A stretch of 64,000 nt of DNA from a virus, in IMG/VR virus record IMGVR_UViG_3300045996_004119, positions 62,111 to 126,110 of that record. One strand, 5' to 3'. Of the stretch, positions 1,338 through 48,431 are shown piece after piece. Numbering within the stretch: the stretch's first letter is position 1; each line of letters begins with the position of its first letter. The translations under genes were made by a program, and so were the position numbers. The notes beneath the pieces were generated by a model. It was given only the letters and a program-made list of their open reading frames with translations, did not search any database and was not told where the DNA came from.

Positions 1338-1346
1338 CCCCTCCGC

Positions 1347-3199: not shown

Positions 3200-3264
3200 A
3201 CCACGAAGATCTTCGCGTCCGGGCAAGGGCCGCGAGCCCTCACGCATCAACCGGAGACATCGCG

Positions 3265-5799: not shown

Positions 5800-5901
5800 C
5801 CTGACGGCGCACCCGCCTCGGCAAACCGACCACCACAACCAGAATCAATGGAGCGACGCGCTGCCCGCTGAGGCGGAGATCTGCGCGCCGAGAAGCCACT
5901 C

Positions 5902-6801: not shown

Positions 6802-6831
6802 CCATGGGCGTCGGGTTCTTCAGGGTCCAGC

Positions 6832-7131: not shown

Positions 7132-7132
7132 G

Positions 7133-7531: not shown

Positions 7532-7541
7532 GGACACCACC

Positions 7542-7949: not shown

Positions 7950-7955
7950 GAGCCG

Positions 7956-9735: not shown

Positions 9736-9740
9736 CCACA

Positions 9741-10139
9741 ATGGCAGATCGAGAGACTCCCGGGGCGGTCGCCCCGGACGAGGGCGAGCGTGCGCCCGAC
9801 GCTGGAGGCGTGCGCGACTTCACCGGGCGCGCGCGGCCGCCGTCAGCGACAAAGGAGACCCCGGCGAAGACCGGTATCCAGCAGGAGCCGGCGAAGGCGC
9901 CGGACGCTCCACGCAAGAGCTTCGAGGACTGGGCGAAGGCCAGCTTCGCCGTCGCCATCGACGCGCGCGGCCGCGCGTCTGGCGTGGTGAAGGGCAAGCG
10001 CATCGGCAAGGACAGCACCCGGAACGCCGCACTCGTCAACGCCGCGCGCACGCTGCACCGCGTCCCGATCGGCAAGATCGTGACCGAAGACGAGTTCAAC
10101 AAGCTGCTCGACGCCACCAAGGCGATCCAGGTGAGGTGA
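9741..10139 (+). CDS. Hypothetical protein
   Basis: GGAG SD; co-oriented ORF immediately before the sheath. Confidence 0.6.
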   Translation: MADRETPGAVAPDEGERAPDAGGVRDFTGRARPPSATKETPAKTGIQQEPAKAPDAPRKSFEDWAKASFAVAIDARGRASGVVKGKRIGKDSTRNAALVNAARTLHRVPIGKIVTEDEFNKLLDATKAIQVR

Positions 10140-10142
10140 CCA

Positions 10143-11900
10143 ATGCCCCTCGGTGACGTACGCACGGAGATCCTGGACGGGGCGCTGGGCCTCTCGCAGC
10201 AGGATTTCTCCGCGATCTCGGCGAAGGTGGGGATGTCCTCCAGCGGGGACTTCAACACCATCAGGCTCTACAGCCGGCCGCGAGACGTGAAGTCTCGGCT
10301 GGGCACCGGCCCACTCGTGGAGTCGGGCGCTTTCCACATCGCGCGTTCGAGCCGCGGCACCTACCTCTGCCGCGTCGACGGCAGCGTGGCTGGCACGACG
10401 AGCGCGGTCACGAAGAGCCGGGCGGAATCCCCCACCATCGTGCTCAGCGGCGCGCCGCTGGACACGTACCAGGGGAGCATTCGCTTCACGCAGGCTGGCA
10501 CCGTCGGCAGCGGCACTGGCACCGGCGCGTTCGCATATTCGGTGGACGGCCTCGACTCGGAGAGCCCGGAGATCGCCATGCCGGCCGGGTCGGTGGACAC
10601 CGCCACGGTGACCGGCTCCGTGGACATGACCACCGCCGGGCTCTACGGAGGCGGCGGGACCCTGAATGGCACGGGCTTCTCCGTGAACGGCGATCAGGTG
10701 ACCTTCTCCTCGCCGGCGAACGCCGCGGCCGTGGTGACCGCCATCAACACGGCGGCCGGCGAGACGATCGCGAGCATCGACGACGACGATCACCTCGTGT
10801 TCACGAGCGGATCGGAGATCGTCCTGGCCGCTGGTTCGCCAAGCGGCGCTCTCGCGCTGCTCGGCCTGACCGCTGGCACGACGCCGACGGTGGCCGGAGC
10901 GGCCACCTACCCACTCGGGGACACCGGGCTCACGGTGACGTTCCCGCAGGGCAGCTACGCGGTGGACGACACCTACACTTTCACCACGGCCGAGCCGAGC
11001 TACACGCTCTCGGACCTCCAGGACGCACTCGACGTGTTCATCGCAAACCACCAAATCCAGTGGTTCTGCCTGCACGTCGTCGGGGCGCCCACGAGCGAGG
11101 CGAACGCGCGCGCGATGGCTGACTTGCTCGACACGTACGCCGCCGACTTCGAGGCGGTGCACCGCTTCATGTTCTTCGTGATGGAGACCGCAGAGGATAG
11201 CGACCCCGACATGCTGGAGGAGGAATTCGCCGACTTCGAGTCCACCCGCGTCGCGGTCGGGTTCCGGCACTGTGAGCTCACCAGCGAGGCCACACGCGAC
11301 CAACTCAAGCGTGTCTTCACCCGCCCCGTGACGTGGCCGATCGTGGCGCGTTGGGCCGCGGTGCCGATCAGCGAGAAGGGCGCATGGGTCGGGCGCGGCT
11401 CGCTGCCAGGCGTCGTGTCCGTCGACCAGGAGACGCTCGACGCTGCCGAGCAGATGAGCGACGCTCGCTTCCTCGCCCTCAGGGAGGTCATCGGCAAGGA
11501 CGGCTACTACCTGGCCGACGACATGACGATGGCTCCGGTCGGCTCCGACTTCAGCCTCGTCCCGTACCGCAGGATCATGGACGTTGCGTGCCGCGTCTCG
11601 CGACAGAAGCTACTCAACTACCTGCACGCGCGCATCCTGGTCCACGAGGACACGGGCTACATCGTCGAGTCCGTCGCGAAGGCGATCGAGGATGACGTAA
11701 ACGTGGCGCTCGAGGCGGAGCTCGTGAACCCGCGCCCGCAGCAGCACGCGACGTCGGCGCGGATGGTGCTGACGCGCGACAACGACATCCTGAGCACGCA
11801 GGAGTTGCTCGCGGAGACGCGCATCGTTCCGCCCGGGTACGCGAAGGACATCGTGCACACCATCGGCTTCATCAACCCGACCGTGACTACGGCGGTCTGA
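10143..11900 (+). CDS. Contractile tail sheath protein (DUF2586-like)
   Basis: 585 aa; MPLGDV..ILDGALG start, LGTGPLVE, VVGA, V.RG.L.GV, R..IGKDGYY..D..T.AP.GSDF..V.YRRIMD.ACR; followed by a tube-sized gene. Confidence 0.85.
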   Translation: MPLGDVRTEILDGALGLSQQDFSAISAKVGMSSSGDFNTIRLYSRPRDVKSRLGTGPLVESGAFHIARSSRGTYLCRVDGSVAGTTSAVTKSRAESPTIVLSGAPLDTYQGSIRFTQAGTVGSGTGTGAFAYSVDGLDSESPEIAMPAGSVDTATVTGSVDMTTAGLYGGGGTLNGTGFSVNGDQVTFSSPANAAAVVTAINTAAGETIASIDDDDHLVFTSGSEIVLAAGSPSGALALLGLTAGTTPTVAGAATYPLGDTGLTVTFPQGSYAVDDTYTFTTAEPSYTLSDLQDALDVFIANHQIQWFCLHVVGAPTSEANARAMADLLDTYAADFEAVHRFMFFVMETAEDSDPDMLEEEFADFESTRVAVGFRHCELTSEATRDQLKRVFTRPVTWPIVARWAAVPISEKGAWVGRGSLPGVVSVDQETLDAAEQMSDARFLALREVIGKDGYYLADDMTMAPVGSDFSLVPYRRIMDVACRVSRQKLLNYLHARILVHEDTGYIVESVAKAIEDDVNVALEAELVNPRPQQHATSARMVLTRDNDILSTQELLAETRIVPPGYAKDIVHTIGFINPTVTTAV

Positions 11901-11907
11901 GGGCACC

Positions 11908-12378
11908 ATGTCAGAGCTCGAATACCCGACGATCAACGGGCACGCCGCGTCGTGGGCCAGCATCGGCCTCCAGCTCAGCGGTGCCAACATGAACGGCTCC
12001 CAGGCGCTGCGCGGCTTCAGGGCGATCAACTACAAGACCACGGTGGAGCGCACCCCGGTTTACGGCGCGGGCCGCGAGATCATCGCCTACACCGAGGGCA
12101 CCGTGGCCCACGAGGCCAGCGTGACGTGGATCTACGAGACCTACGACCACCTGGTACAGACGCTCGGCGAGGGCTTCATGGACAAGGGGCTCGTGCTCTC
12201 CGTGTCCTTCAAGCTCGGCACCAACGTGGTCAGGAACGTGCAGATCACGGCGAAGGGGATGAAGGAATCCGGCGGCGACTTCTCGCAGGGGACCGATGGC
12301 CTCGAGATCCCAAGCCCGCTCGATGTCCTGCGCATCCTCTACGACGGCAAGAACCCCACTACCACGACCGTACTCTGA
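11908..12378 (+). CDS. Tail tube protein
   Basis: 156 aa directly after the sheath; INGH..SW.SI, I.Y......PVYGAGR pattern. Confidence 0.8.
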   Translation: MSELEYPTINGHAASWASIGLQLSGANMNGSQALRGFRAINYKTTVERTPVYGAGREIIAYTEGTVAHEASVTWIYETYDHLVQTLGEGFMDKGLVLSVSFKLGTNVVRNVQITAKGMKESGGDFSQGTDGLEIPSPLDVLRILYDGKNPTTTTVL

Positions 12379-12393
12379 GGCAGAAGAGCGAAC

Positions 12394-12723
12394 ATGGCTG
12401 AGATCGAATTCAAGCTGACTGACGAGCAGAAGAAGAAGAAGGCGGAGCTCGAGGCGAAGCACGGCGTCGAGTGCTACCTGATCCGCGGCGCCGGCGTGGA
12501 CGCCTGGTACAAAGAGCCGACGATCGGGGACGTCGAACTCTTCATGACCGACAACGGGGATCCGAAGAGTCGGGGCCGCGCGCTGATCGACCTCCTGCGG
12601 CGCAACCTGGCGGATGGCACCACCGAGACGGTGTTCGGGAAGCGCGCTGGCGCCATCGTCTCGCATGCGGGTAAGTACGCCGACGTGGTCGGCATCTCGA
12701 CAGACGCCATCCTGGGAAAATAA
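12394..12723 (+). CDS. Tail assembly chaperone (gpG-like)
   Basis: Lies between tube and tape measure genes; ends in slippery GGGAAAA immediately before TAA. Confidence 0.8.
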   Translation: MAEIEFKLTDEQKKKKAELEAKHGVECYLIRGAGVDAWYKEPTIGDVELFMTDNGDPKSRGRALIDLLRRNLADGTTETVFGKRAGAIVSHAGKYADVVGISTDAILGK

Positions 12724-12899
12724 AGCGCGCACGCGCCGGCGCGAAGAAGACGCCGTATCTCGCAGCGCGGCAGCTGCTCGCGGCGCGCGGCGTGGACCCG
12801 TCCGTCATGGCGCTCGCTGGAGCCTGGGACGAGGTGGAGCACCGCCGCAAGGTCGACGCCCTCATCGAGGGTATCTGCTCGGCCGGGAAGAAGAAGTAG
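12714..12899 (+). other. Programmed -1 frameshift site (G GGA AAA) and gpT-like extension
   Basis: Heptamer at 12714-12720. The -1 frame reads IKRARAGAKKTPYLAARQLL...AGKKK-TAG (stop 12897-12899), ending 1 nt before the tape-measure ATG, and has no start codon near its beginning (first ATG at 12807). Confidence 0.85.
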
Positions 12900-15236
12900 A
12901 TGGCGAACGTCGTCGAGTGGCAGCTGAAGGTCAGCCAGGCCGGCGCGAATCAGGCGGCCCAGGCGATCGACAAGATCGCTGCGGCGGCCGGCGGCGCCGT
13001 TGGTGATGTGGGCAAGCTCGGCGACGCCACGGAGAGGGCAGCCGACGCTGCCATCAAGGCCGCGGGCGCCTACCGCGATGCCGGCGGGCGACTGCGCGAG
13101 GCCAACGGCAGGTTCGTCAAGGGCGGCGTCGAGGGCCTGTTGGCGGCGCAGGCAGCGGCCGCGAAGCTCGCTGATACGGTCGATGGCGCTCAGCGAGTAG
13201 GCCCGGTGCTCGGTGATGGCGACATCCCGAAGCCGGCCATGGTCCGCAGCCTGTCGAGCGAATTCGACAAGTTGCAAGCGTCCCTTGGCGGCGCGAACGC
13301 GAACGCGGTCCTGTGGGCGCAGTCGATCAAGCGCGGCGCCGACAACCTGAAGGCGATCCGCGCTGCGTCGCGCGCGTCGGCTGGAGCGACCGACGCGGAG
13401 AAGATGATCGGCGGCGCCACACCCGCGCACCTGAAGCAGGCGCAGGACCTGTCGCTCACTCAGCGTGCGGTCCGGCGCGTTCTGCAGGAACTGAACGCCT
13501 CGACCGGGGGCGCAGCGTTCCGCGGCATCGCGCGGGTGTCGGACGGGTTCGACAAGCTGAGGCCCGCGATGGGGCTTGTGCGCGACGTCGGCAGCGACCT
13601 CGCACCCGTGTTCGGCAAGATCGGCGGCGCTGCGAGTTCGGTCCTGGGTATCCTGGGGCCGCTGACGGCTGCGGCGCTAGCCGCCGGTGGGGCCTTCGCC
13701 GCCATGACCGCCGGCGCTGCGTTTGGAGGCGCCAAGCTCGTCTCCTCCGTCGTAAAGGCTCAGGCTCAGCGCGAAGACCTCACGCGAGGCCTCTCGATTC
13801 AGCTGAAGTCGTCTGCTGCCGGCTGGGACACCCTCCAGAGAGCGGCTCGCACTGCCGACATGATTGGCGAGTCCAGGGTCGAGACCGCGGGGCAGTTCAA
13901 CGACCTGCTCGCCAAGGGGTTCACGGTAGACCGCGTCGACGAACTCGTCAGGCGCATGGCCGACATGAAGGTCGTGGACCCGAAGGCCGACATGGCCGGT
14001 ATCACCCGCGCTATTGGGCAGATCGCTGGCACGGGCCGCCTCCAGGGCGATGAGCTGAACCAGCTGGCAGAGAACGGGCTGGAGACGGGCGCCGTCTACG
14101 ACGCGCTGGCGAAGCGCCTCGGCAAGACGCGCGCGGAGATCATCAAGCTCAAGGAGGCCGGCAAGATCGATAGCGACACGGCAATCCAAGGCATCATGGA
14201 TGCCATCGCCACCCAAACCGGTGGCAAGGCGGCCGGCGTCGTGGCGGGCGAAGCGTCAAAGGGTCTTTCGGGCACGATGAAGCGCCTGGAGAACTTCTGG
14301 GAGAACCTGACGTTCTCCATGGACGCGCGCGAAGGACTTGGCGCAGTGCGCACGTCCTTGGGTGCGATCAACGACCTGCTCGACCTCAACACCGAAAGCG
14401 GTGCGAAGTTCGCCACGGCCATCGAAGGGACGTTCAACGCTCTCGCCGCTGGGTTCGTCGAAGGGTTCGGCGGCAAGGCCGCAGATGGCCCGGAAGCGCT
14501 CCGACAGAACATCCAGAAGGTGCTGGACGGCATCATCGCCGCGAAGCCCGATATCAAGGAATTCGCCGCGGCACTCGGTAAGGCGGCGGACGCCGGCGTG
14601 AGGCTCGCTGGTGCCTTTGGCGAGTCAGGCGCCATCGGCAAGGCGTTCAAGGTGATGGGGGTCGGCGTCAACGCAGGGCTCCTCGCCGGAGAGACCGTCT
14701 CGAACCAGGCGACGACGATTGGTAACGTCGGGAGGGTGCTTGAGGGCAAGCCCCCCGAGGCTCTAGCCTCCGAGCAGCGGTCGGCGTACACGCCAGTCGG
14801 GGCGGCCATTGTGGACGGCATCGTCACTGGGATCTTCGGCAACTCATATCAGCTCCTCCAGGCGATGACGAGCCTGACGAACATCGGGATCGACGCGTTC
14901 ACCACGCAAAACAAGATCCATTCGCCGTCCAAGCTGTACGAGGAACTTGGCGGCTACCTGCCGATGGGGTTGGAGCGCGGCATCGTCGCGAACAGCAACG
15001 GCATCTTCGACGCAATGCTCGCCGCACCAGACCTTCAGCCGCCGGACCTCGGCGCCATCACCGGCGGAGCCGCGGCTGCGATCGGGCTCGTCGGCGGGCG
15101 CGGCGCCATCTCTGTCGGCGACATCTACGTGGACGCGCGCGGCGCTCAGGAGCCGGAGCGGGTCGCGGAGCTCGTGCGTGAGGAGTTGCTCAGGACCATG
15201 GAGAGCATGGGCCTGGCCACGGGAGCGGCAGCCTGA
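12900..15236 (+). CDS. Tape measure protein
   Basis: 778 aa, Ala/Gly-rich and helical; tape-measure domain motif GRLQGDELNQLAENG; IHSPSK near the C-terminus. Confidence 0.9.
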   Translation: MANVVEWQLKVSQAGANQAAQAIDKIAAAAGGAVGDVGKLGDATERAADAAIKAAGAYRDAGGRLREANGRFVKGGVEGLLAAQAAAAKLADTVDGAQRVGPVLGDGDIPKPAMVRSLSSEFDKLQASLGGANANAVLWAQSIKRGADNLKAIRAASRASAGATDAEKMIGGATPAHLKQAQDLSLTQRAVRRVLQELNASTGGAAFRGIARVSDGFDKLRPAMGLVRDVGSDLAPVFGKIGGAASSVLGILGPLTAAALAAGGAFAAMTAGAAFGGAKLVSSVVKAQAQREDLTRGLSIQLKSSAAGWDTLQRAARTADMIGESRVETAGQFNDLLAKGFTVDRVDELVRRMADMKVVDPKADMAGITRAIGQIAGTGRLQGDELNQLAENGLETGAVYDALAKRLGKTRAEIIKLKEAGKIDSDTAIQGIMDAIATQTGGKAAGVVAGEASKGLSGTMKRLENFWENLTFSMDAREGLGAVRTSLGAINDLLDLNTESGAKFATAIEGTFNALAAGFVEGFGGKAADGPEALRQNIQKVLDGIIAAKPDIKEFAAALGKAADAGVRLAGAFGESGAIGKAFKVMGVGVNAGLLAGETVSNQATTIGNVGRVLEGKPPEALASEQRSAYTPVGAAIVDGIVTGIFGNSYQLLQAMTSLTNIGIDAFTTQNKIHSPSKLYEELGGYLPMGLERGIVANSNGIFDAMLAAPDLQPPDLGAITGGAAAAIGLVGGRGAISVGDIYVDARGAQEPERVAELVREELLRTMESMGLATGAAA

Positions 15237-15838
15237 TGGCGACCATCCCTTGGCCGGAGACCCAGCCTGGCGCCTGGGACGTGCTGTTCCTTGCGGGGCG
15301 CGTGTTCCCTGGTCTCGCCAAGATCAAGGTGAAGGGCGGCCAGAAAATCGACCGCAAAGACGCGCCGGGCTCCGACGGGGAGACGACGGTGCAGCAGGGC
15401 GAGAAGGCGAAGGACGTCGACATCGTCCACCGGATGTGGACGCAGAAGCAGTGGGACGAGTTCGAGTCGTGCTTCCTGCTCATCGAGCCCATCAGCGAGA
15501 AGCGGCGCCCGGTCGACATCGTGACCAGCCAGACGGCGTTCAGGCTGATCACCTCGGTTATCGTCGAGGAGATCGATGGCCCCGAATGGGCGGAGGACAA
15601 GCGGTGGATGGAGTTCCGGTACAAGTGCATCGAGCACAAGCCGCCTCCGCCGAAGAACACGACTAAAAAGAACGTGGCTTCGCTCTCGACGCCGAACGCT
15701 GGGAACATGAACGACCGCATCGACCTTGGTTCGGGCGGCGGAAGGATCGGCATTTACGACGCGGCGCAGGCGAGCGTGACGACGGCGGTCTATCGCTCGA
15801 TGCTCGGCTTCCCGCGCTCCGGCCTGCCGAGCGGCTGA
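15236..15838 (+). CDS. Tail tube initiator/baseplate-proximal protein
   Basis: Directly follows the tape measure gene; LAG.VFPG..K.K...KID.K.APG.DG pattern. Confidence 0.6.
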   Translation: MATIPWPETQPGAWDVLFLAGRVFPGLAKIKVKGGQKIDRKDAPGSDGETTVQQGEKAKDVDIVHRMWTQKQWDEFESCFLLIEPISEKRRPVDIVTSQTAFRLITSVIVEEIDGPEWAEDKRWMEFRYKCIEHKPPPPKNTTKKNVASLSTPNAGNMNDRIDLGSGGGRIGIYDAAQASVTTAVYRSMLGFPRSGLPSG

Positions 15839-17049
15839 TGCTCGTCTCCTGCAACGGTATCCGCGTCAACAGCGGCGAGATCGTGATGCCCCGCGTGGGC
15901 ACGTGGATCGCCGACATGGCGATCGACGGCGCGCCTCCCACGGGCGCATGCACGATCAGCGTGAACGACGGCGCGGTCGTGTTCCGCGGGACCGTGGTGC
16001 GCCCGAGTTCGTTCCGTGAGCGGCATTCGGTCCTCGTGGTCGGCGGCGCCGGCGGGCTCTCGAGCTACATCCCGCACACCCACCACCGCGCGGTGCCCGT
16101 GGAGACGCCGGTCAAGGCCATCCTCTCCGCCGCTGGAGAGACGCTCTCGTCGACGTCCGACGCGGCCACGTTGCGCAAGCGCCTGGACGCTTGGAGCCGC
16201 AGGGCAGGCACGGCCGGCGACGCGCTGACGACCCTGCTCGACGACGTGGGGGCCGCATGGCGCGTCCTGGACGACGGCACGGTCTGGGTCGGGGCCGAGA
16301 CGTGGCCGGCGGTCACGGTGGCCATGCAGGTCACTGGCGACGGCGGCTCGATGGACTCCGCCGAGGTTGCCACCGATCTGCCAGTGCTCCGGCCGGGGAC
16401 GACCGTGGGCGGCCGCAAGGTCTCCACCGTCATCCACCGCTTCGACCCGTCGCGGGTCCGCACCAGGTTGCTCTACGAGCGCGGGACCATGGACCGCCTC
16501 CGCGGGGCCTTCTTCGGCCTCGCGCGACAGGCGCTCGCCGCGGTCGACTACCACCCGTCCTACGCGGCCACGGTCGTCCAGCAGCAGGGCAACGGGGATC
16601 TCGTGGTCCGGGTCGACGACGAGCGCTTCCAGCGCGGGTCGGACGGCACGGGCATCGCCGGGGTCAAAGCGTGGCCCGGCGTGCCCGGGATCAGCTACCT
16701 CGTGCGGCGCGGCACCCGCGTGCTCGTGGGCTTCCTCGACGGGCGCGGCGAGGTGCCGATCGTGACCGGCTGGCGCAGCGAGACACCGGAGCGGGTCACG
16801 CTCGAGGCCGACCGGATCAACCTCGGTGAGAACGCAACGCGCGGCGTGGCCCGGCTCAACGACACGGCGAACGCTGGCGCGATCTCCGCGACGCAGGTTG
16901 CGACCAACGTTGTCGCCATCACCTACGCCCCGCCGAGCGGTGCCCCGGTGGTCATCACCCTGGGCGCGCCCGGCCTGACCGTGACGCCGGCGAACGGCGC
17001 CATGACGGCCGTTATCAACTCCTCATCTTCCAAGGCCTTCGCGGAGTAG
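15838..17049 (+). CDS. Baseplate hub fused to gpV-like spike OB-fold
   Basis: N-terminal hub-like part; C-terminal Y.ATVVQQ...VRRGTRVLVGFLDGRGEVPIV is the gpV/VgrG OB-fold pattern. Confidence 0.7.
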   Translation: MLVSCNGIRVNSGEIVMPRVGTWIADMAIDGAPPTGACTISVNDGAVVFRGTVVRPSSFRERHSVLVVGGAGGLSSYIPHTHHRAVPVETPVKAILSAAGETLSSTSDAATLRKRLDAWSRRAGTAGDALTTLLDDVGAAWRVLDDGTVWVGAETWPAVTVAMQVTGDGGSMDSAEVATDLPVLRPGTTVGGRKVSTVIHRFDPSRVRTRLLYERGTMDRLRGAFFGLARQALAAVDYHPSYAATVVQQQGNGDLVVRVDDERFQRGSDGTGIAGVKAWPGVPGISYLVRRGTRVLVGFLDGRGEVPIVTGWRSETPERVTLEADRINLGENATRGVARLNDTANAGAISATQVATNVVAITYAPPSGAPVVITLGAPGLTVTPANGAMTAVINSSSSKAFAE

Positions 17050-28291: not shown

Positions 28292-28512
28292 GCGCCGCGT
28301 CTCGGCTGCCTGGCGCTGCGAGGGTACGTCTCCGTGAGCCAGGCCCGAAGGCCGAGCGCGTTGATGCGGCGGTCCAGGGTCCTCCGGTTCACCGAGAGTG
28401 CCTCCGCAGCGCGCTCCACGTTGCCGGACGCGGCGGCGAGCGCCTCGCGGATGGCTGCGGCGTCGGCCGCGCTCGCCTGCATGATGGCGTCTGCCGTGAG
28501 CGGCCGCGTCAT
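28288..28512 (-). CDS. Fis-family helix-turn-helix protein
   Basis: ALAAASGNVERAAEALSVNRRTL.RRI is the HTH_8 signature. Confidence 0.8.
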   Translation of the reverse strand: MTRPLTADAIMQASAADAAAIREALAAASGNVERAAEALSVNRRTLDRRINALGLRAWLTETYPRSARQPRRGA

Positions 28513-35777: not shown

Positions 35778-35806
35778 TTGATAGACCATTGGTCTACCAA
35801 TGTCAA
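35778..35806 (-). promoter_or_regulatory. Promoter TTGACA-17-TATCAA with perfect operator TAGACCATTGGTCTA
   Basis: The palindrome at 35782-35796 lies in the spacer and overlaps the -10 element. Confidence 0.8.
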
Positions 35807-37409: not shown

Positions 37410-37437
37410 ATGATAGATCACTGGTCTACCATGTCAA
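37410..37437 (-). promoter_or_regulatory. Promoter TTGACA-16-TATCAT with operator TAGATCACTGGTCTA
   Basis: Operator at 37414-37428; its arms differ from the 35782 copy at one position and the central base also differs. Confidence 0.8.
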
Positions 37438-39428: not shown

Positions 39429-39446
39429 TGGTAGACCACTGGACAA
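39429..39446 (+). promoter_or_regulatory. Operator copy TGGTAGACCACTGGAC
   Basis: Upstream of the rightward operon starting at 39475. Confidence 0.65.
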
Positions 39447-42343: not shown

Positions 42344-42657
42344 GCGAATTCAAGGTCGGCGACCGGGCGACGTTCGAGCTGGACGGCAACGTGCGCACCG
42401 TCTTCACGGTGGAGGAGATCGACGACGGGCGCCTCTATGCGAACGGCCGCGGGCTCATGGTCCGCGCCGCCCGCGCGCGTCCGTGGCGCCCGGGAGATGA
42501 CGAGGCCGCGCAGCACTGGCGCGACCGGCGCAACTGCATCGAGTTCAGCCGGTGGGCCGAGCTGTCGCCGGCGGACGCTGCGGCGGTGGCTGCCATCCTG
42601 CGGAAGTACCTGCCCGCGCCGGACGAGGACGACGGCGACGCCCCGGAGCCTCGATGA
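42340..42657 (+). CDS. Hypothetical protein with a KOW/SH3-like N-terminus
   Basis: FKVGDRA...FTVEEI pattern. Confidence 0.6.
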   Translation: MSEFKVGDRATFELDGNVRTVFTVEEIDDGRLYANGRGLMVRAARARPWRPGDDEAAQHWRDRRNCIEFSRWAELSPADAAAVAAILRKYLPAPDEDDGDAPEPR

Positions 42658-43340
42658 CCGCCGCCTACTCCATCGCCTACCTCCAGGACGGCCGCGACCG
42701 CGGCGCGCTCATGTACTGGTACGTGTGGGCCGCCTGGCTCGACGCGCCCGCGGGCAAGCCGTGGACGACGCCGATCGCGACCGGACGCGTGCTCCAGAGC
42801 GGCTACAGCATGGGCATCCAGCACGCCGACGAGCACGCGGAGATCGAGGCCGACGATGCCATCCGCGTGCGGCTCGGCCCTGGCGCGGAGACCCGGCGCC
42901 TCGACGACAGCTTCGCCAGGGCCGCCTACCGCGAAGCCCAGGGCGCCGCCCCGAACTGGCGGCCGAAGCGGCCGACGAAGCACCGCTACGCCACCCCGCG
43001 CGGGTTCTCGCGGCCGCCGGCGACGTCTGCGCGCACGTTCTTCGAGGCGGTGTGGGCGGCGGACGAGGCGAAGCTCCGCGAGCTCGAGGAACTGCTGCAG
43101 CGCGCTCGCCGGGCGGGAGTGGGCCACGACTTCGGCTGGATGCGCGGGCAGGCGCCGGCGCCGGCGTCGTCCGCCCTTGCCGCTCTCGGCCTCTCCCGCG
43201 GCGCCACCGAGGCCGACGTGCGCCGGGCGTACCGGAAGCTCGCGCTGCAGACGCACCCGGACCGCGGCGGCTCGGCGGAGGCGTTCAGGCGGGCCACGGA
43301 GGCGAGAGACGCGGCGCTCCGGGCGGTGGGAGGCCGCTGA
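42654..43340 (+). CDS. J-domain (DnaJ-like) protein
   Basis: C-terminal LGL...AT..DVRRAYRKLA...HPDRGG..E.F, with the HPD motif intact. Confidence 0.85.
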   Translation: MTAAYSIAYLQDGRDRGALMYWYVWAAWLDAPAGKPWTTPIATGRVLQSGYSMGIQHADEHAEIEADDAIRVRLGPGAETRRLDDSFARAAYREAQGAAPNWRPKRPTKHRYATPRGFSRPPATSARTFFEAVWAADEAKLRELEELLQRARRAGVGHDFGWMRGQAPAPASSALAALGLSRGATEADVRRAYRKLALQTHPDRGGSAEAFRRATEARDAALRAVGGR

Positions 43341-43401
43341 AGAATCGACGCGGCCGCGATCGATCCGCCGCTGGACGGCATCTTCCCCAGCAGGAGGCGT
43401 G

Positions 43402-43665
43402 ATGCAGCAGATCGATGGATGGAAGCGCGCGGCCGGGGCGTGGCAGGGGGCTGAGCCGGCCGCCGCCGAGGTGGCGGGCTGGGAGCGGTGGACCGGCGAC
43501 GCCCGGGTGGAGCTCCGGCGGAGCGGCTCGCGGTGGGCGGTGGCCCGGGACGGCGAGGTCGTGCTGTTCGGCGAGCTGCCGGCTGGCGGAGAGATGCGGC
43601 ATGCCGGGCTGCTGGCGCTCGGCGTGGCGTGTGGGGACGAGGACGTGACGAGGAGGGATCGATGA
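43402..43665 (+). CDS. Hypothetical protein
   Basis: AGGAGG SD. Confidence 0.55.
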   Translation: MQQIDGWKRAAGAWQGAEPAAAEVAGWERWTGDARVELRRSGSRWAVARDGEVVLFGELPAGGEMRHAGLLALGVACGDEDVTRRDR

Positions 43666-44036
43666 GGCTGAAAACCTGGCACTTCGAACACGCGGTGGTG
43701 GTCTCGGTGCTCGCCGCGGTGTGGTGGGCGACTGGACACGAGCTCCGGGAGGCAGCCGGATCGCTCGCCGTCTATCTCTCCTTCGGGCACGCCTCGGTGA
43801 GCGAGCGCCTGCGAGAGCGCGAGGCGGCGCGGCCGGTGCCGTCGGTGGAGTGCCACCGCAAGGCGACGCTCTACTTCGTCGGCAAGGAGATCGTCTGGGC
43901 CTGCTACTTCGTCTGGTCGGGCACCTACGCGGCCCTCGTCGGCTGCGCGGTGTTCGCGGCGTACCCGCTGTGGAGGCGATGGTGGCGGCGCGTCCACCCG
44001 ATGACGTCGGCCGCCGCACCGGTCCTTGACAGCTGA
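43662..44036 (+). CDS. Membrane protein
   Basis: Several hydrophobic segments; AGGAGG SD. Confidence 0.65.
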   Translation: MRLKTWHFEHAVVVSVLAAVWWATGHELREAAGSLAVYLSFGHASVSERLREREAARPVPSVECHRKATLYFVGKEIVWACYFVWSGTYAALVGCAVFAAYPLWRRWWRRVHPMTSAAAPVLDS

Positions 44037-44065
44037 TAGCGCAAACGCTATCGATAGACCATTGG
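44026..44065 (+). promoter_or_regulatory. Promoter TTGACA-17-TATCGA with inverted repeat GATAGCG-N4-CGCTATC and operator copy ATAGACCATTGG
   Basis: -35 at 44026-44031, inverted repeat at 44035-44052, operator at 44054-44065 identical to 35781-35792. Confidence 0.75.
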
Positions 44066-44090
44066 CGCGCAGCGCTGGGAGGGAGCAAGC

Positions 44091-44339
44091 ATGTCGAATA
44101 TCATCGACGCGATTCGGGCAGAGCTCGACCGGCTGGACGCAGGCGGCGACGACGGCATCGAGGTGGAGGCGCATCCGGCCGGCGTTCGCTTCTACGATAC
44201 CCAGGAAAGCGCCGTGTACGACGCGGCAGAGGCGCTCGCGGCACTGCGCGCGGTCGGACCGGACGACATCAACCCCGACGATGGTGGCGGCTTCGGGGCC
44301 GCGTGGAATGCGCTCGCGCACCTCCAGGAGGTGCCTTGA
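44091..44339 (+). CDS. Hypothetical acidic protein
   Basis: GGGAG SD; first gene after the promoter. Confidence 0.65.
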   Translation: MSNIIDAIRAELDRLDAGGDDGIEVEAHPAGVRFYDTQESAVYDAAEALAALRAVGPDDINPDDGGGFGAAWNALAHLQEVP

Positions 44340-44851
44340 CGCAGCAGCTTGACTCCGCAACCCTCGCCGCCGAGCTGCGCCGGGAGATCGCCGCCGCCCT
44401 CGCCTCTGCGGGGCTCTCGCAGCGCGACCTTTCCGAGTCGACCGGGATCGCCCAGAGCGGCATCAGCCGGGCGCTCACGGGCACGGCCGACCCTCAGCTC
44501 TCCACGTTGGTGCGCCTGCTCGCGGCGGTAGGCTGCCGGCTGCGGGTGGAGCTGGTCGACACGCCCAACGACGTAGAGATCGCCACAGGGACGAACTACC
44601 GAACACGTTTCAGCGACAAGAGGGAGCAAATGCCTACAACCAAGTTCAACGTATCTAGAAACGAAGTCTGCGTGCTGCATAGCAGCGACTGGGCTGGCGA
44701 CGTGGAAATTGTCTGGAGCGACAGCGGGACAGAGCGTCGCGTCAAAATGCCGGGCAACATGCTGCTCAGCATCTCCTCGGCTATCTTCCAGGCGAAGCTC
44801 GCTCAGAGGGCGAAGGCGTTCGTGGATCGCCTGACGTTCAGGCGCTCTTGA
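44336..44851 (+). CDS. XRE-family HTH transcriptional regulator
   Basis: TTG start after AGGAGG; GLSQRDLSESTGIAQSGISRAL.G..DPQLSTLVRLL. Confidence 0.85.
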   Translation: MTQQLDSATLAAELRREIAAALASAGLSQRDLSESTGIAQSGISRALTGTADPQLSTLVRLLAAVGCRLRVELVDTPNDVEIATGTNYRTRFSDKREQMPTTKFNVSRNEVCVLHSSDWAGDVEIVWSDSGTERRVKMPGNMLLSISSAIFQAKLAQRAKAFVDRLTFRRS

Positions 44852-44899
44852 CTCCACATCAGACGCTGTCACGCTATCTGCGTCCGTCGCCATGTTGCG

Positions 44900-45166
44900 A
44901 CGCCGTCCGTCGGGTGAGAGCTCGGCGGAGGGGCTAGCCCTGATGGGCTGAGGTCCGGGACCACCGGCGCAAGCCGACCCCGGAGCCCCATGGAAGCGGA
45001 TTCCAAATCCGTGCCCTCCCGGGGCGGTGGGTGCCGGCGCGCTGGAAGCCGGCCGTGTCAGGACGTCACGCGGGCGATTGGAAGGCCCGTACGCCTCAGG
45101 CGGTGACCACACCGGGCGCGAGGCGCTGAAGGGCTCGACGGTCGACCGCCGGGCCCTTCGTCTTTG
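44900..45166 (+). ncRNA. Candidate structured non-coding RNA with a tRNA-Trp-like anticodon arm
   Basis: The ~330 nt gap has no credible ORF but many hairpins, including a GCAA tetraloop (44965-44976), GCGGA-TTCCAAA-TCCGT (44996-45012) and a terminal GAAGGGC..GCCCTTC-GTCTTT; boundaries are approximate. Confidence 0.5.
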
Positions 45167-45183
45167 CGTAGGGTGGAGGCGAG

Positions 45184-45498
45184 ATGCTGAAGGCGTTGAA
45201 CGTCGGGATGATGCTGGCCGCGCACCCCGTCATGGCCGCCGCTGCGGAGCGCGCGCGGGAGCGGGAGGAGACCATCTGCCGGCTCACAGTTCTCGTGGGC
45301 GACCGCGCCGAGGCGCAGCGCGCCGAGGCGCAGCGCGCCGTGGAGCTGGCGGAACGGGTCGGCCTCGGCGCGAGCGCCGTCTACAACATCGCCGCGCGCG
45401 GGGAGCCGCTGCCGAAGACCGAGGAGGAGCTCCTGGCCACCAGCGAGGCGGGGCAGAGGCGGGTCGAGGACCTCGCCAGGATCCTGGGGGTCCGGTGA
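45184..45498 (+). CDS. Hypothetical helical protein
   Basis: GGAGG SD. Confidence 0.6.
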   Translation: MLKALNVGMMLAAHPVMAAAAERAREREETICRLTVLVGDRAEAQRAEAQRAVELAERVGLGASAVYNIAARGEPLPKTEEELLATSEAGQRRVEDLARILGVR

Positions 45499-45704
45499 GC
45501 CTGAGCGCGACGGAGCTCTGCATCGTCGTCGCGACCCTCGTCGGCTTGGCCAAGCCGGCGCTCGCGCTGATTGGCCTGCTCGGGGGACGGATGGAGCGGC
45601 CACCCGTTGAGCCACTCTTCATGGAGCGCCTGTCGCGCTCGGATCCGCCCGCGCTCCCCGAGCACGTCGGCGGATACCGGACGAGCCCATCGGAGCCGCG
45701 CTGA
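45495..45704 (+). CDS. Small single-TM protein
   Basis: GTGA-coupled; hydrophobic N-terminus. Confidence 0.5.
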   Translation: MSLSATELCIVVATLVGLAKPALALIGLLGGRMERPPVEPLFMERLSRSDPPALPEHVGGYRTSPSEPR

Positions 45705-46261
45705 TGTTCTGGAACCACCACCCCGTCCTCCGCTTCGGCCCGCTCGACATCGACACGGGCGCCATCCCCGAGCTCCGGGCCCTCGCTGGCGTCCCGCAGC
45801 CGGCGAGGCATCACCCGGAGGTGGACTCCTGGACGCACGTGCTCATGGCCGTCGACCAGGCGCGCATCCTGACGGACGAGCCGGCGGTGCGGTTCGCCGT
45901 CCTGCTCCACGACCTGGGGAAGGGGACGACGCCGGCCGAGGTCCTGCCGCAGCACATCGACCACGAGGAGCGCGGCGTTCCGCTGGTGCACGCCGTCTGC
46001 GATCGCCTCGACGTGCCGCCGGCTTGGCGCGAGCTCGCCGCCTTGGTCTGCGAGCACCACACGCGCTGCCACCGGGCGACGGAGATGAGCCCGGCCGGGA
46101 AGCGGAGGCTACTGCGTCGGGTCGGCGCCGCCGAGGAGCCCGAACGGCTGGAGCTGTTCCTGCTGGCCTGCGAGGCTGACGCCCGCGGTCGGCTCGGCCT
46201 GGAGCGCCGGGAGTACCCGCAGCGGTGCCTCGTGCTGGAGGCGGCGCGCCGTAGCCCATGA
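45704..46261 (+). CDS. Stand-alone HD phosphoesterase closely resembling the C-terminal HD domain of multifunctional CCA-adding enzymes
   Basis: HHPEVD..H, VRFAVLLHDLGKG.TP...P.H..H...G...V...C.RL.VP, ACEADARGR.G.E...YPQ; no nucleotidyltransferase domain. Confidence 0.85.
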   Translation: MFWNHHPVLRFGPLDIDTGAIPELRALAGVPQPARHHPEVDSWTHVLMAVDQARILTDEPAVRFAVLLHDLGKGTTPAEVLPQHIDHEERGVPLVHAVCDRLDVPPAWRELAALVCEHHTRCHRATEMSPAGKRRLLRRVGAAEEPERLELFLLACEADARGRLGLERREYPQRCLVLEAARRSP

Positions 46262-46464
46262 TCCGCCTCCGCCGCGACACCCTCTTCCGCGCCGACGTCA
46301 CCGCCCTGGAGCGCCTGGCCCGCTGGCTGGGCCTGCCGGAGCCACGGCGCTGGCGCACGGAGCGCGAGCGCAAGGCGAAGCTCGTCGAGGCGATCGAGCG
46401 CCACGAAAAGCGGCTCCAGCGTGAGCACGGCGGGGGCACTGGGCCGCGCCGACGGATCGGGTAG
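46258..46464 (+). CDS. Hypothetical basic protein
   Basis: ATGA-coupled. Confidence 0.55.
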   Translation: MIRLRRDTLFRADVTALERLARWLGLPEPRRWRTERERKAKLVEAIERHEKRLQREHGGGTGPRRRIG

Positions 46465-46895: not shown

Positions 46896-46957
46896 TCCTG
46901 GCCCGCGTCAGCGCGCTCCCACGCAACCGGCGCCGGGCCCGCGTCGACATCCTCGGC

Positions 46958-47152
46958 ATGGACGACCTGGACCTTGCTGACCTCGACGACCTCGCCGCCA
47001 TCGCAGAAGCCGCTCTCGACGAGCCCGTGGAGACGCTCGCCGTGGCGCATCCCGTCGCGCCGGAACTGCGGCTCGAGGTGACCTTCGACGGCGGCGGCCT
47101 CGTCGCGGCGACGTGGCGCCTCGGCGGCTGGTGGCGCGTGGCGGAGGGCTAG
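46958..47152 (+). CDS. Hypothetical small protein
   Basis: Acidic N-terminus; followed by a hairpin at 47158-47178. Confidence 0.45.
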   Translation: MDDLDLADLDDLAAIAEAALDEPVETLAVAHPVAPELRLEVTFDGGGLVAATWRLGGWWRVAEG

Positions 47153-47311
47153 CCCAGGCGGCATGGCAATTCTGCCGCAAGTCCAAGCACTTACAGTGAC
47201 CGGCCGTCGCCGCGTTAACACATAATTTGCACGTGTCAACTGCAAATCGACACGAAGTGTTAGCTAGATCGCTTGCACGCTGACGCTGCCGGGTCACGCT
47301 CACCAAAGTAG

Positions 47312-47346
47312 CGCGCCCTGAGAGGCTGGCGGTCTCTCAGGGCGCG
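47312..47346. other. Perfect 13-bp hairpin
   Basis: CGCGCCCTGAGAG-N9-CTCTCAGGGCGCG in an AT-richer intergenic region. Confidence 0.8.
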
Positions 47347-47435
47347 GAGGACGACCCGTGCTTGCAGGTCATCCTCTGGATGGCTGAGAAGCCCTTCCGC
47401 GAGGAAGGTTACTCCACCCACTGCGCGCCGCAAGC

Positions 47436-47906
47436 GTGACGACTGCGCCTCGCGCGAGGCGCAGCTACGCGGAGTATTGCACCTTGCACGACAGCGCCGA
47501 TTCATCAGCTCCCACCATCGAAGACCTGCGACGCGAGATCACAGCTGCCATTAGGCACAAGGGAAGGAACCCTCAGCGCTCCGATGAGGAGGCAAGGCTG
47601 CCATTCTGGTCCTGCGATCCCGCAAGCGGGGGCGACGGCGTTAGGTGGGCAAAGCTGACGGCCCAGACCATCTCGGTCGGAGCCCGGGACATCCCGGTTT
47701 GGGTTTACGAAGGGTCGGTGAATGTGTCTGCACTGGACAGTGACGAACGCATGAGCGCCTCGACCCTGCGCGGCTTCGTCGAGCAAAGCCTCGGCCCGCA
47801 ATGCCGGAAGGTGCACCTCGTCTCGCGCGAAGGCGACATCGCTAGGATCGTCGCCAAGTTCCGCTTCGTTGCCGACGAGCACCAACAGCACCGCGCGAAA
47901 ATCTGA
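47436..47906 (+). CDS. Hypothetical protein (AT-richer moron)
   Basis: 156 aa ORF with atypical composition. Confidence 0.5.
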   Translation: MTTAPRARRSYAEYCTLHDSADSSAPTIEDLRREITAAIRHKGRNPQRSDEEARLPFWSCDPASGGDGVRWAKLTAQTISVGARDIPVWVYEGSVNVSALDSDERMSASTLRGFVEQSLGPQCRKVHLVSREGDIARIVAKFRFVADEHQQHRAKI

Positions 47907-48166
47907 AGCCGCCGCCCGCTGTGGACGACGACCTCGGTACTCCTTCTGCGCGTGGTGGGCGGCAGAGATGGGGGAGGCCTAGGAGCTCCATCGTTGCCGC
48001 GCCAGCAAAATTCACCGCGACATCGCCGCGGGTTCGATGGCATGCTCTGCCCAGGTCAACGAACTCCGTGCCCGCGCTGTTGCGGGGCGGGATTCGTGCG
48101 CCTGAAAGCAGAAACCCGGTCCCCACCTCCGGTAAGAGTCTGGGACCGGGCTCAGGAGAGTCGCCC

Positions 48167-48382
48167 GTGAAGAATCACGAACGAATTCCGAGACCAGTTG
48201 TAACTGGTTACAACCGCCTGGGCAATGAGAACCGCGTCCATGATGGACACGGCGTCCATGACGCGCATGGACGGCAGGGTTCCTTCGAACTGAAGCTCAC
48301 CGGGCCAGCCGTCACATTCATCGCCGGCGCCATCGTGGTGTTCATGGGCCTGGTCGCCGCGCGTCTGGCCGGCGGAGGGTAG
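48167..48382 (+). CDS. Small C-terminal-TM protein
   Basis: AGGAG SD + GTG; TM segment AVTFIAGAIVVFMGLVAA. Confidence 0.45.
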   Translation: MKNHERIPRPVVTGYNRLGNENRVHDGHGVHDAHGRQGSFELKLTGPAVTFIAGAIVVFMGLVAARLAGGG

Positions 48383-48391
48383 CCGAGCGCG

Positions 48392-48425
48392 AGCCGGAGG
48401 CGTCGGCGCACTGGCGCCTCCGGCT
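48392..48425. terminator. Hairpin between convergent genes
   Basis: AGCCGGAGGCG...CGCCTCCGGCT, 11 bp stem. Confidence 0.6.
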
Positions 48426-48431
48426 TGCTGC

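What the first reader, a model, noticed from the sequence alone, without database searches (positions are those of the whole stretch)
44880..45183. Candidate novel structured ncRNA with a tRNA-Trp-like anticodon arm and three TGGAA motifs
Seen: a ~330-nt gap without a credible ORF in otherwise tightly coupled genes. It contains a long helix (ATGGGCT/AGCCCCAT, TCCGG/CCGGA) capped by CGGC-GCAA-GCCG; GCGGA-TTCCAAA-TCCGT, a 5-bp stem with a canonical 7-nt loop (TT-CCA-AA, Trp anticodon); CCGGC-gcgcTGGAA-GCCGG; GCGGGC-gatTGGAAg-GCCCGT; CGGTG-ACCA-CACCG; and a terminator-like GAAGGGC..GCCCTTC-GTCTTT. TGGAA recurs at 44991, 45043 and 45079, two of them in loops. There is no T-arm, so it is not a tRNA. 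Inference: either a tRNA-mimic decoy for anticodon nucleases or a GGA-loop sponge of CsrA/Rsm type.
Basis: partly seen in the sequence, partly recalled or inferred. Interest (0 to 1): 0.78.

Follow-up and report, generated by a model that had tools for sequence, protein, structure and literature searches.

The report
Orphan hairpin-rich spacer in a phage
A 332-base non-coding, unusually hairpin-rich stretch sits between two gene blocks of an uncultured 126-kb phage; it is most likely a folded piece of messenger RNA ending in a transcription stop signal, and the proposed tRNA-decoy or CsrA-sponge roles found no support.

Summary
The gap is real, at window 44852-45183 (332 nt). It shows no codon-position GC signal, has no Rfam or tRNA hit, and folds about 3 SD better than shuffles (z -3.3 on +, -2.9 on -). 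Background windows of the same phage average z -0.17, sd 1.04.

- Its "long helix" has about zero ensemble probability.
- The anticodon-like hairpin sits at the tip of a 74-nt arm and folds as a 7-bp stem with a 3-nt loop.
- The TGGAAG triple is not significant (about 6% of genome windows show an equally rare hexamer three times).

The 17-mer GCGGATTCCAAATCCGT is letter-identical to the anticodon arm of real tRNA-Trp genes (74 of 121 genomic matches). However, 47 matches are chance sites and the similarity stops at 17 nt. The phage holds 85 hairpins of that shape, and only 2 of 401 Myxococcota genomes carry the 17-mer.

No homologue of the gap was found, so covariation could not be tested. Two distant relatives lack the gap, which lies at a module rearrangement junction.

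Best reading (0.4): a cis-acting structured spacer ending in a terminator or attenuator. The decoy reading remains a 7% long shot.

The scan noted anticodon-arm RNAs in other phages, but no look-alike of this sequence.

The parts
44027..44055 (+). Promoter-like site P1 (TTGACA, 17 nt, TATCGA) with the palindrome GATAGCG-caaa-CGCTATC in the spacer, followed by an operator half-site TAGACCATTGG. Probable start of the transcript that runs into the gap.
   Evidence: Read from the sequence. It has the same -35/-10 type as the TTGACA-16/17-TATCAa/t sites at 35782 and 37414. Not called by the consensus scan. Inferred.
44091..44339 (+). 82-aa gene, first gene of the upstream coupled pair
   Evidence: ORF list. 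Its stop overlaps the TTG start of the next gene. No family hit.
44336..44851 (+). 171-aa regulator: an N-terminal Cro/C1-type HTH plus a low-GC C-terminal domain of unknown fold
   Evidence: Pfam HTH_3, E 4e-9. phrog_1373 transcriptional regulator. One full-length relative, P0002, at 82% identity and conserved end to end. The L002 homologue is 78 aa, HTH only. GC is 0.55-0.60 in the C-terminal part.
44852..45183 (+). The 332-nt non-coding, hairpin-rich gap (the finding)
   Evidence: Flat codon-position GC. z -3.05 to -3.7 on + and -2.6 to -3.4 on -. No Rfam or tRNA hit. No copy elsewhere in the phage.
44863..44878 (+). Tandem ACGCTGTC ACGCTATC just after a TTGACT (44848-44853). It resembles the CGCTATC half-sites of P1. 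Possible regulator site, or a decayed promoter copy with a 21-nt spacer.
   Evidence: Sequence. CGCTATC occurs 15 times in the genome against 12.5 expected, and 3 of these lie at 44035-44872. Inferred, weak.
44885..44902 (+). Hairpin CGUCGC / GCGACG
   Evidence: Pair probability 0.87-0.96 in all contexts folded
44906..44929 (+). 10-bp hairpin with a GAGA tetraloop
   Evidence: Pair probability 0.99 in all contexts
44936..44949 (+). Hairpin AGCCC / GGGCU
   Evidence: P 0.72-0.93
44964..45037 (+). 74-nt interrupted arm (helices CCGGCGC/GUGCCGG, GCCG/CGGU, CCCCGG/CCGGGG) that carries the anticodon-like hairpin at its tip
Evidence: P 0.79-0.94 for its helices in all contexts.
44996..45012 (+). GCGGA-UUCCAAA-UCCGU, identical to the anticodon arm of some bacterial tRNA-Trp(CCA) genes
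   Evidence: P 0.82. At least 120 exact genomic matches, of which 74 of 121 lie in ARAGORN tRNA-Trp genes and 47 do not. Likeness is limited to 17 nt.
45070..45090 (+). Hairpin GCGGGC / GCCCGU with the 9-nt loop GAUUGGAAG
   Evidence: P 0.98 in all contexts. The 17-mer has only chance matches in viral contigs.
45092..45125 (+). Hairpin CGCCUC / GAGGCG with a GGUG-ACCA-CACC tip
   Evidence: P 0.68 for the outer helix. The GGUG/CACC tip ranges from 0.12 to 0.96 depending on context.
45127..45167 (+). Terminal GC-rich hairpin (11+3 bp) followed by UCUUUG: an intrinsic terminator or attenuator candidate oriented for the + strand
   Evidence: -23.6 kcal/mol, P 0.91-0.95. Palindrome I4.
45173..45183 (+). 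Shine-Dalgarno region (GUGGAGG) of the next gene. GUGGAG is complementary to CUCCAC at 44852-44857, directly after the upstream stop codon.
   Evidence: Closing helix P 0.97 when the gap is folded alone, 0.10-0.34 in wider contexts
45184..45498 (+). 104-aa gene, first of a stop/start-overlapped chain (45495-45704, 45704-46261, 46258-46464)
   Evidence: ORF list. Homologues in L002 and L003 at 61-73% identity follow coding genes with no gap.
45704..46261 (+). 185-aa stand-alone HD domain of the E. coli-type CCA-adding/repair enzyme (context only)
   Evidence: NF008137 positions 207-367 of 409, E 1.4e-53. phrog_2244. Homologues in cultured phages are parts of full-length CCA enzymes. The phage has no nucleotidyltransferase head.

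Best explanation
The gap is a cis-acting, folded segment of a polycistronic early phage mRNA. It lies at the joint between two gene modules.

Proposed working:
- Transcription from the promoter-like site at 44027-44055 runs through the 82-aa gene and the HTH-regulator gene into about 275 nt of stable hairpins.
- It then meets a GC-rich hairpin with a short U tract at 45127-45167, some 10 nt before the ribosome-binding site of the next gene.
- That hairpin ends, or attenuates, the regulator transcript. It thereby sets how much RNA polymerase reaches the downstream chain (104-aa gene, small membrane protein, HD domain and others).
- The upstream hairpins would stabilise the 3' end or tune read-through.

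Shown: the stretch is non-coding, unusually stable in its fold, oriented with a hairpin and U tract on the + strand, and has no recognisable promoter inside.

Inferred: the transcript boundaries, and the terminator or attenuator function.
For: - Non-coding by codon-position GC.
- Fold z -3.05 to -3.7 against a background mean of -0.17.
- The terminal hairpin is -23.6 kcal/mol with P 0.91-0.95. UCUUUG follows it on the + strand only; the - strand has no U tract after it.
- All flanking genes lie on the + strand and are joined by overlapping stop and start codons. This gap is the only break between the two chains.
- My relaxed scan found no sigma-70-like promoter in 44700-45300 on either strand, and the tool's scan found none either. 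The downstream chain therefore seems to depend on read-through.
- The gap lies exactly where gene order differs from relatives. In L002 the 'membrane protein ... HTH' cassette sits after the 104-aa gene, and in L002 and L003 the 104-aa gene directly follows coding sequence. This is the promoter-gene-terminator layout of inserted phage cassettes ('morons'; my own knowledge).
Against: - About 275 nt of extra structure is far more than a terminator needs.
- The U tract is weak and failed the consensus scan.
- Fold stability is nearly the same on both strands, and G-U pairs number 11 against 9. The RNA strand is therefore not proven by the fold.
- No homologue is available to show selection on the pairs.
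- The promoter assignment is by eye.
Confidence: 0.4

Rival explanations
1. Stand-alone trans-acting small RNA of about 280-320 nt. In the sharpest version it displays an exact tRNA-Trp anticodon arm on a long stalk. That arm would act as a decoy or sponge for a host factor that recognises this arm, such as an anticodon nuclease of the VapC, PrrC or HEPN kind, or a modification enzyme. It might work alongside the downstream Cca-type HD end-healing domain.
For: - The 17-mer is identical to the anticodon arm of 74 ARAGORN-called tRNA-Trp(CCA) genes.
- It sits at the exposed tip of a well-defined 74-nt arm.
- An HD domain of the CCA addition/repair enzyme lies 520 nt downstream (E 1.4e-53). It is absent from the two relatives that also lack the gap.
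- A TTGACT and a TATCTG lie at the 5' edge, and a hairpin with a U tract at the 3' edge.
- Earlier scan notes, not checked here, report anticodon-arm-bearing RNAs in other phages.
Against: - 47 of 121 genomic matches of the 17-mer are ordinary non-tRNA sites, near the roughly 70 expected by chance in 596 Gb.
- Likeness to tRNA-Trp genes stops at the 17 nt.
- There is no T arm, D arm or acceptor. ARAGORN finds nothing at default or at its pseudogene setting, and calls only spurious non-Trp genes (anticodons agcc and gga) at its 80% threshold. Rfam tRNA gives nothing at E<=10.
- The phage has 85 hairpins of anticodon-arm shape.
- The thermodynamic fold closes the loop to 3 nt.
- Only 2 of 401 Myxococcota genomes carry the 17-mer, and most carriers are low-GC Bdellovibrionota, unlike this 70% GC phage.
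- The promoter spacer is 21 nt, outside the usual range.
- The phage has no RNA ligase, RtcB, CCA head domain or Ro60-like protein.
Confidence: 0.2
2. Non-functional leftover of the recombination that joined two modules. This would be decayed or foreign DNA whose fold stability is a chance extreme.
For: - The gap lies at a rearrangement junction and is absent from both relatives.
- No homologue was found in viral, metagenome or 401 Myxococcota genome searches.
- Fold stability is nearly strand-symmetric.
- About 1 in 40 random windows reaches z <= -3.
- The TGGAAG triple is not significant.
Against: - z -3.3 to -3.7 is in the top few per cent of the genome.
- Phage genomes rarely keep 330 nt of useless DNA (my own knowledge).
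- No translated similarity to genes of the relatives that would mark a decayed gene.
- The hairpin-plus-U-tract is placed just before a ribosome-binding site.
Confidence: 0.25
3. DNA-level element: extra operator sites for the adjacent HTH regulator, or another protein-binding, replication or recombination site made of inverted repeats.
For: - Stability is similar on both strands.
- Tandem ACGCTGTC ACGCTATC at 44863-44878 matches the CGCTATC half-sites of the palindrome in the upstream promoter-like site.
- The regulator gene is adjacent.
Against: - CGCTATC occurs at the expected genome frequency, 15 against 12.5.
- GC content equals the genome mean, so this is not an AT-rich origin.
- No iterons or repeats beyond chance.
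Confidence: 0.08
4. CsrA/Rsm-type sponge RNA that titrates a CsrA-like translational repressor through GGA motifs in hairpin loops.
For: Three TGGAAG within 94 nt. One lies in a confident 9-nt hairpin loop at 45070-45090.
Against: - 8 GGA in 332 nt, counted from the sequence, against about 6 expected from base composition (my arithmetic). Known sponges carry 5-22 motifs, mostly in loops (my own knowledge).
- The other two TGGAAG lie in an internal loop or are partly paired.
- No Rfam CsrB, CsrC or RsmX/Y/Z hit at E<=10.
- No CsrA gene in the phage, and the host is unknown.
- The triple is not significant.
Confidence: 0.02
5. A small protein gene hides in the gap, for example the 38-codon ORF 44990-45106.
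For: ATG with GGAG 4 nt upstream.
Against: - Codon-position GC is flat, and third-position GC is about 74% against about 90% in the phage's genes.
- The peptide is arginine-rich, as expected of out-of-frame GC-rich sequence.
- The ORF cuts through the most stable helices.
Confidence: 0.03

Closest known systems
Intrinsic (factor-independent) terminators and structured 3' UTRs at the ends of inserted phage cassettes ('morons': promoter, gene, terminator)
   Same: - A GC-rich hairpin with a downstream U-rich run on the coding strand, at the end of a regulator cassette that sits at different places in related phages.
- A promoter-like site upstream of the cassette.
   Different: - About 275 nt of additional stable hairpins precede it.
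- The U tract is short (UCUUUG).
- Termination is not shown.
Transcription attenuators and processive antitermination RNAs in phage early operons (for example HK022 put RNA; lambda nut sites)
   Same: Folded RNA in an early operon placed upstream of a terminator, ahead of delayed genes that have no promoter of their own.
   Different: - No sequence or family match.
- put is two short stem-loops, and nothing here was tested for action on RNA polymerase.
- The resemblance comes from my own knowledge, not from a test.
tRNA-Trp (Rfam RF00005) and tRNA-like or anticodon-arm-bearing phage RNAs (YrlA-type Y RNAs; scan notes e1-5751783, e1-1904130)
   Same: An exact copy of a genuine tRNA-Trp anticodon arm, 17 of 17 nt.
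   Different: - No acceptor, D or T arm, and no tRNA or YrlA model hit.
- No Ro60/TROVE or DUF2828 gene.
- A single copy with no shared 'handle', and no family members found.
CsrB/RsmZ family sponges
   Same: GGA within a hairpin loop at 45070-45090.
   Different: - The GGA count is at the chance level.
- No family hit and no CsrA partner found.

Membership tests
tRNA (RF00005) | Cloverleaf with acceptor stem, D arm, anticodon arm and T arm with a GTTCRA-type loop | tested here: not met
   - ARAGORN finds none in the window or the genome, at default or at its pseudogene setting.
- Only spurious calls appear at its 80% threshold and in the permissive mitochondrial mode.
- Rfam gives nothing at E<=10.
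- No T-loop motif in the gap.
tRNA (RF00005) | Anticodon arm: 5-bp stem, 7-nt loop with U33 and a purine at 37 | tested here: met
   GCGGA-UUCCAAA-UCCGU at 44996-45012 is identical to the arm of 74 tRNA-Trp(CCA) genes. However, free-energy folding closes it to 7 bp with a 3-nt loop, and 85 hairpins of this shape occur in the phage.
CsrB/RsmX/Y/Z sponge RNAs | Many GGA (ANGGA) motifs, most of them in loops of short hairpins | tested here: not met
   8 GGA, counted from the sequence, against about 6 expected from base composition (my arithmetic). One lies in a confident loop. The TGGAAG triple has p of about 0.06.
CsrB/RsmX/Y/Z sponge RNAs | Match to a family model, and a CsrA/RsmA partner in the system | tested here: not met
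   No Rfam match at E<=10. No CsrA in the phage. The host is unknown, so a host CsrA could not be tested.
Intrinsic terminator | Stable GC-rich hairpin immediately followed by a U tract on the transcribed strand | tested here: inconclusive
   The hairpin is -23.6 kcal/mol with P 0.91-0.95.
Riboswitches and other catalogued cis-regulatory leaders or ribozymes (Rfam 15) | Match to a covariance model | tested here: not met
   No match at gathering score in the window, nor at E<=10 in 44700-45350.
Y RNA-like RNAs (YrlA) with Ro60/Rsr | Ro60/TROVE-type protein gene nearby and a YrlA-type fold | tested here: not met
   No TROVE or DUF2828 in the phage. No Rfam hit.
Retron msr-msd RNA | Adjacent reverse transcriptase | tested here: not met
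   No RVT_1 in the phage.
Conserved structured RNA (any new family) | Homologues with compensatory base changes | not testable with these tools
   - No homologue was retrieved.

The most novel reading that the evidence does not exclude
The gap encodes a phage small RNA that holds out an exact tRNA-Trp anticodon arm on a 74-nt stalk. The arm would act as a decoy for a host tRNA-Trp-directed anticodon nuclease or an anticodon-loop-modifying enzyme. It would form one anti-defence module with the downstream stand-alone Cca-type HD end-healing domain.
Probability: 0.07. Interest if true: 0.8.

Novelty: new member of a known kind. Interest (0 to 1): 0.3.

Why it matters
If the ordinary reading holds, this is one more example of how mosaic phage genomes insulate an inserted regulatory cassette with folded RNA and a terminator. 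That helps annotate transcription units in an uncultured, 70% GC, 126-kb myovirus, but it is not surprising.

It would matter more if the anticodon-arm hairpin proves functional. A phage RNA that imitates only the anticodon arm of one tRNA, placed next to a tRNA-end-repair domain, would be a compact counter-measure against tRNA-cleaving defence systems.

The present evidence does not single out that reading. The key missing data are a transcript map, the host's tRNA-Trp sequence, and at least a few homologues.

Tried and rejected
Searches for homologues of the gap, all negative:
- DNA search in the two related viral contigs.
- Exact 17-20-mers in viral contigs. The two hits are chance matches inside coding sequence.
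- Phage GenBank records by blastn.
- 4 Myxococcota genomes and 401 Myxococcota genomes, which gave only GC-rich low-complexity hits in the flanking genes.
- The scan's own index.

Synteny routes:
- The downstream 104-aa protein gave two distant relatives without the gap and nothing in metagenome contigs.
- The HTH neighbour gave nothing in viral or metagenome contigs.
- The HD protein gave nothing in viral contigs and is absent from the two relatives.

- The listing of cluster members gave no accession for P0002.

Ideas rejected:
- Decayed tRNA gene: likeness is limited to 17 nt.
- Decayed protein gene: no tblastx hit to the relatives.
- Internal repeat, iterons or type III antitoxin-like array: none.
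- Sigma-54 or ECF-type promoters built on TGGAAG: spacing and -12/-10 elements do not fit. This was checked by eye only.
- The 27-nt direct repeat 45118-45144 / 45179-45205 at 74% identity is no better than other chance repeats in the region.

Other attempts:
- Structure of the HTH protein, to look for an RNA-binding C-terminal domain, gave an AlphaFold2 pLDDT of 40.7 and is unusable. The ESM Atlas gave no usable hit.
- PDB sequence search with the HD protein gave no hit.
- Two literature searches for phage anticodon-arm mimics or decoys returned only general reviews.
- One tblastx run without filters was uninformative noise and was redone.
- The host could not be fixed. The tail sheath is 37% identical to Thermus/Meiothermus phages and 30% to Myxococcus phage Mx4.
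Full report
**Setting.** The window is bases 62111-126110 of a 126,110-bp IMG/VR virus record with 127-bp direct terminal repeats and 70% GC. The phage has a contractile tail: major head, sheath and tape-measure genes lie in window 1-17000. Its sheath is only 37% identical to Thermus/Meiothermus phages and 30% to Myxococcus phage Mx4, so the host is unknown. The phage carries no tRNA gene.

**The observation.** The gap runs from the stop codon of an HTH-regulator gene (44849-44851) to the ATG at 45184. That makes it 332 nt, at 44852-45183.
- GC at the three codon positions is flat across the gap (0.67-0.8). The flanking genes show third-position GC of 0.9 or more.
- The 45184 start is fixed by alignment with homologues in two related viral contigs and by an in-frame stop at 45169-45171.
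- The longest ORF inside the gap, 38 codons at 44990-45106, has no coding signature.
- The tool gives MFE -181.3 kcal/mol and z -3.05 on the + strand, and -166.8 and z -2.59 on the - strand.
- With my own dinucleotide shuffles the values are -3.3 and -2.9. Forty-one random 332-nt windows of the same genome have mean -0.17, sd 1.04, and one at or below -3.

The stretch is therefore non-coding and unusually foldable, but not uniquely so. Windows 47153-47750, 47907-48431 and 28292-28508, and genome 51222-51653, reach z -3 to -6.

**Anatomy.** These helices keep high pair probability whatever flank length is folded:
- 44885-44902 (6 bp).
- 44906-44929 (10 bp, GAGA loop, P 0.99).
- 44936-44949.
- A 74-nt interrupted arm at 44964-45037, whose tip is the anticodon-like hairpin 44996-45012.
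- 45070-45090 (6 bp, loop GAUUGGAAG, P 0.98).
- A terminal 11+3-bp hairpin at 45127-45160 (-23.6 kcal/mol), followed by UCUUUG.

They lose to the 74-nt arm by 9.6 kcal/mol and have ensemble probability near zero.

The first six bases after the upstream stop codon (CUCCAC) can pair with GUGGAG in the Shine-Dalgarno region of the next gene. The probability is 0.97 for the gap alone but only 0.10-0.34 in wider contexts. I leave this as an unexplained observation.

**Known families.** Rfam 15 gives no match at gathering score in the window, nor at E<=10 in 44700-45350. This excludes tRNA, catalogued riboswitches, ribozymes, CsrB/Rsm RNAs and YrlA as recognisable members. ARAGORN finds nothing at default or pseudogene settings. 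It makes only spurious calls, none of them the Trp arm, at its 80% threshold, and further noise in the very permissive mitochondrial mode. The phage has no reverse transcriptase, Ro60/TROVE, DUF2828 or CsrA gene.

**The tRNA-Trp likeness.** Of 121 match contexts, 74 lie inside ARAGORN tRNA-Trp(CCA) genes, mostly Bdellovibrionota with some Myxococcota and Planctomycetota. The other 47 are ordinary non-tRNA sites. About 70 chance matches are expected in 596 Gb on two strands (my arithmetic).

So the hairpin is letter-identical to a real, though uncommon, tRNA-Trp anticodon arm, and the same 17-mer also arises by chance at the expected rate. Other points that weigh against a functional tRNA link:
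- Against four Myxococcota genomes that carry it in tRNA-Trp, the likeness to the gap does not extend beyond the 17 nt. This is not a decayed tRNA gene.
- Only 2 of 401 sampled Myxococcota genomes, one of them the seed, hold the 17-mer.
- The phage has about 2,450 hairpins with a 5-bp stem and 7-nt loop. Of these, 85 have pyrimidine-32, U33 and purine-37.

My rough estimate is that an exact match of one hairpin in this gap to some real anticodon arm has a chance of 0.1-1%. That is suggestive, but it was selected post hoc.

**The GGA motif.** TGGAAG occurs three times in 94 nt. However, 5.7% of 332-nt genome windows contain some equally rare hexamer three times. GGA occurs 8 times in all, counted from the sequence, against about 6 expected from base composition (my arithmetic). 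Only one copy sits in a confident loop. The sponge reading fails its defining features.

**Neighbourhood.**
- Upstream, a promoter-like site (TTGACA, 17 nt, TATCGA, with the palindrome GATAGCG-caaa-CGCTATC and an operator half-site) precedes an 82-aa gene. That gene is stop/start-overlapped with a 171-aa protein made of a Cro/C1 HTH and a low-GC C-terminal domain.
- Downstream, the 104-aa gene opens a chain of overlapping genes. The chain includes a 185-aa protein that matches positions 207-367 of 409 of the multifunctional CCA addition/repair protein, that is, its HD domain alone (E 1.4e-53).
- Homologues of that HD protein in cultured phages are parts of full-length CCA enzymes.
- The phage has no nucleotidyltransferase head, RtcB or RNA ligase.
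- No sigma-70-like promoter is seen inside or near the gap. A TTGACT at 44848 is 21 nt from the nearest TATC-type -10.

**Comparison with relatives.**
- Two viral contigs (L002, L003) encode the 104-aa protein at 61-73% identity. In both it directly follows coding sequence, with no gap and no DNA match to the gap.
- In L002 the block 'small gene, membrane protein ... HTH' aligns to window 43318-44097 and 44335-44566 at 70-76% identity. There it lies after the 104-aa gene, and its HTH protein is 78 aa without the C-terminal domain.
- The gap therefore sits at a rearrangement joint. It is specific to this lineage, together with the C-terminal domain of the regulator.
- The regulator has one full-length relative in 5.8 billion proteins: P0002, 82% identical, on a 1036-bp JGI contig. 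I could not fetch that contig. Scans of viral and metagenome contigs found nothing.
Expression could not be tested either.

**Verdict.** The feature is real, but it is an orphan.

The reading that needs the fewest assumptions is a cis-acting folded segment of the early polycistronic mRNA at a module joint. It would end in an intrinsic terminator or attenuator that gates read-through into the 104-aa/HD chain (confidence 0.4). The rivals are:
- a stand-alone small RNA, including the tRNA-Trp-arm decoy (0.2 in all, about 0.07 for the decoy itself);
- a functionless recombination leftover (0.25);
- a DNA-level site (0.08);
- a small protein gene (0.03);
- a CsrA sponge (0.02).

The scan has noted anticodon-arm-bearing RNAs in other phages. 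Those notes are unchecked here, and no look-alike of this sequence is on record.

Noticed in passing
window 47153-47750 and 47907-48431 (also genome 51222-51653, outside the window): ORF-poor by codon-position GC (flat, 0.57-0.68), with GC 0.58-0.66 below the 0.70 genome mean. Fold z is -3.0/-3.2 and -4.9/-5.8, more extreme than the finding's gap. Possible further non-coding RNAs or a replication origin.
   Followed up: partly
window 46918-46961; L002 about 5195-5239; L003 about 3930-3972: A motif of about 40 nt (CACGCAACC..GC..GCGTCGACaTCC..GGCATG) is conserved in three otherwise diverged phages, directly before the start codon of a 67-aa gene. It looks like a conserved promoter of a leaderless transcript.
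   Followed up: no
window 45704-46261: A stand-alone HD domain of the E. coli-type CCA addition/repair enzyme (NF008137 positions 207-367 of 409, E 1.4e-53). The phage has no nucleotidyltransferase head, RtcB or RNA ligase. The gene is absent from the two related contigs.
   Followed up: partly
window 35782-35796, 37414-37428, 39432-39446, 44055-44065: The operator TAGACCAnTGGTCTA lies in the spacer of TTGACA-16/17-TATCAa/t promoters whose -10 is 6 nt from the ATG, giving leaderless early genes on the minus strand. There are three full copies against 0.4 expected, plus a half-site at 44055.
   Followed up: partly
window 43318-44566 versus L002 3730-5182: The cassette 'small gene, membrane protein..., HTH regulator' sits on opposite sides of the 104-aa gene in two related phages. 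In the window the regulator has gained a low-GC C-terminal domain of about 90 aa and unknown fold.
   Followed up: partly
window 44852-44857 and 45173-45178: CUCCAC, directly after the regulator's stop codon, is complementary to GUGGAG in the Shine-Dalgarno region of the next gene 320 nt away. This could couple translation across the folded spacer, but the pairing probability depends strongly on context (0.10-0.97).
   Followed up: partly
window 42552-43340: A 262-aa protein ends in a J-domain-like motif (HPD). It matches only PHROGs of unknown function through its C-terminal 50-60 residues.
   Followed up: no
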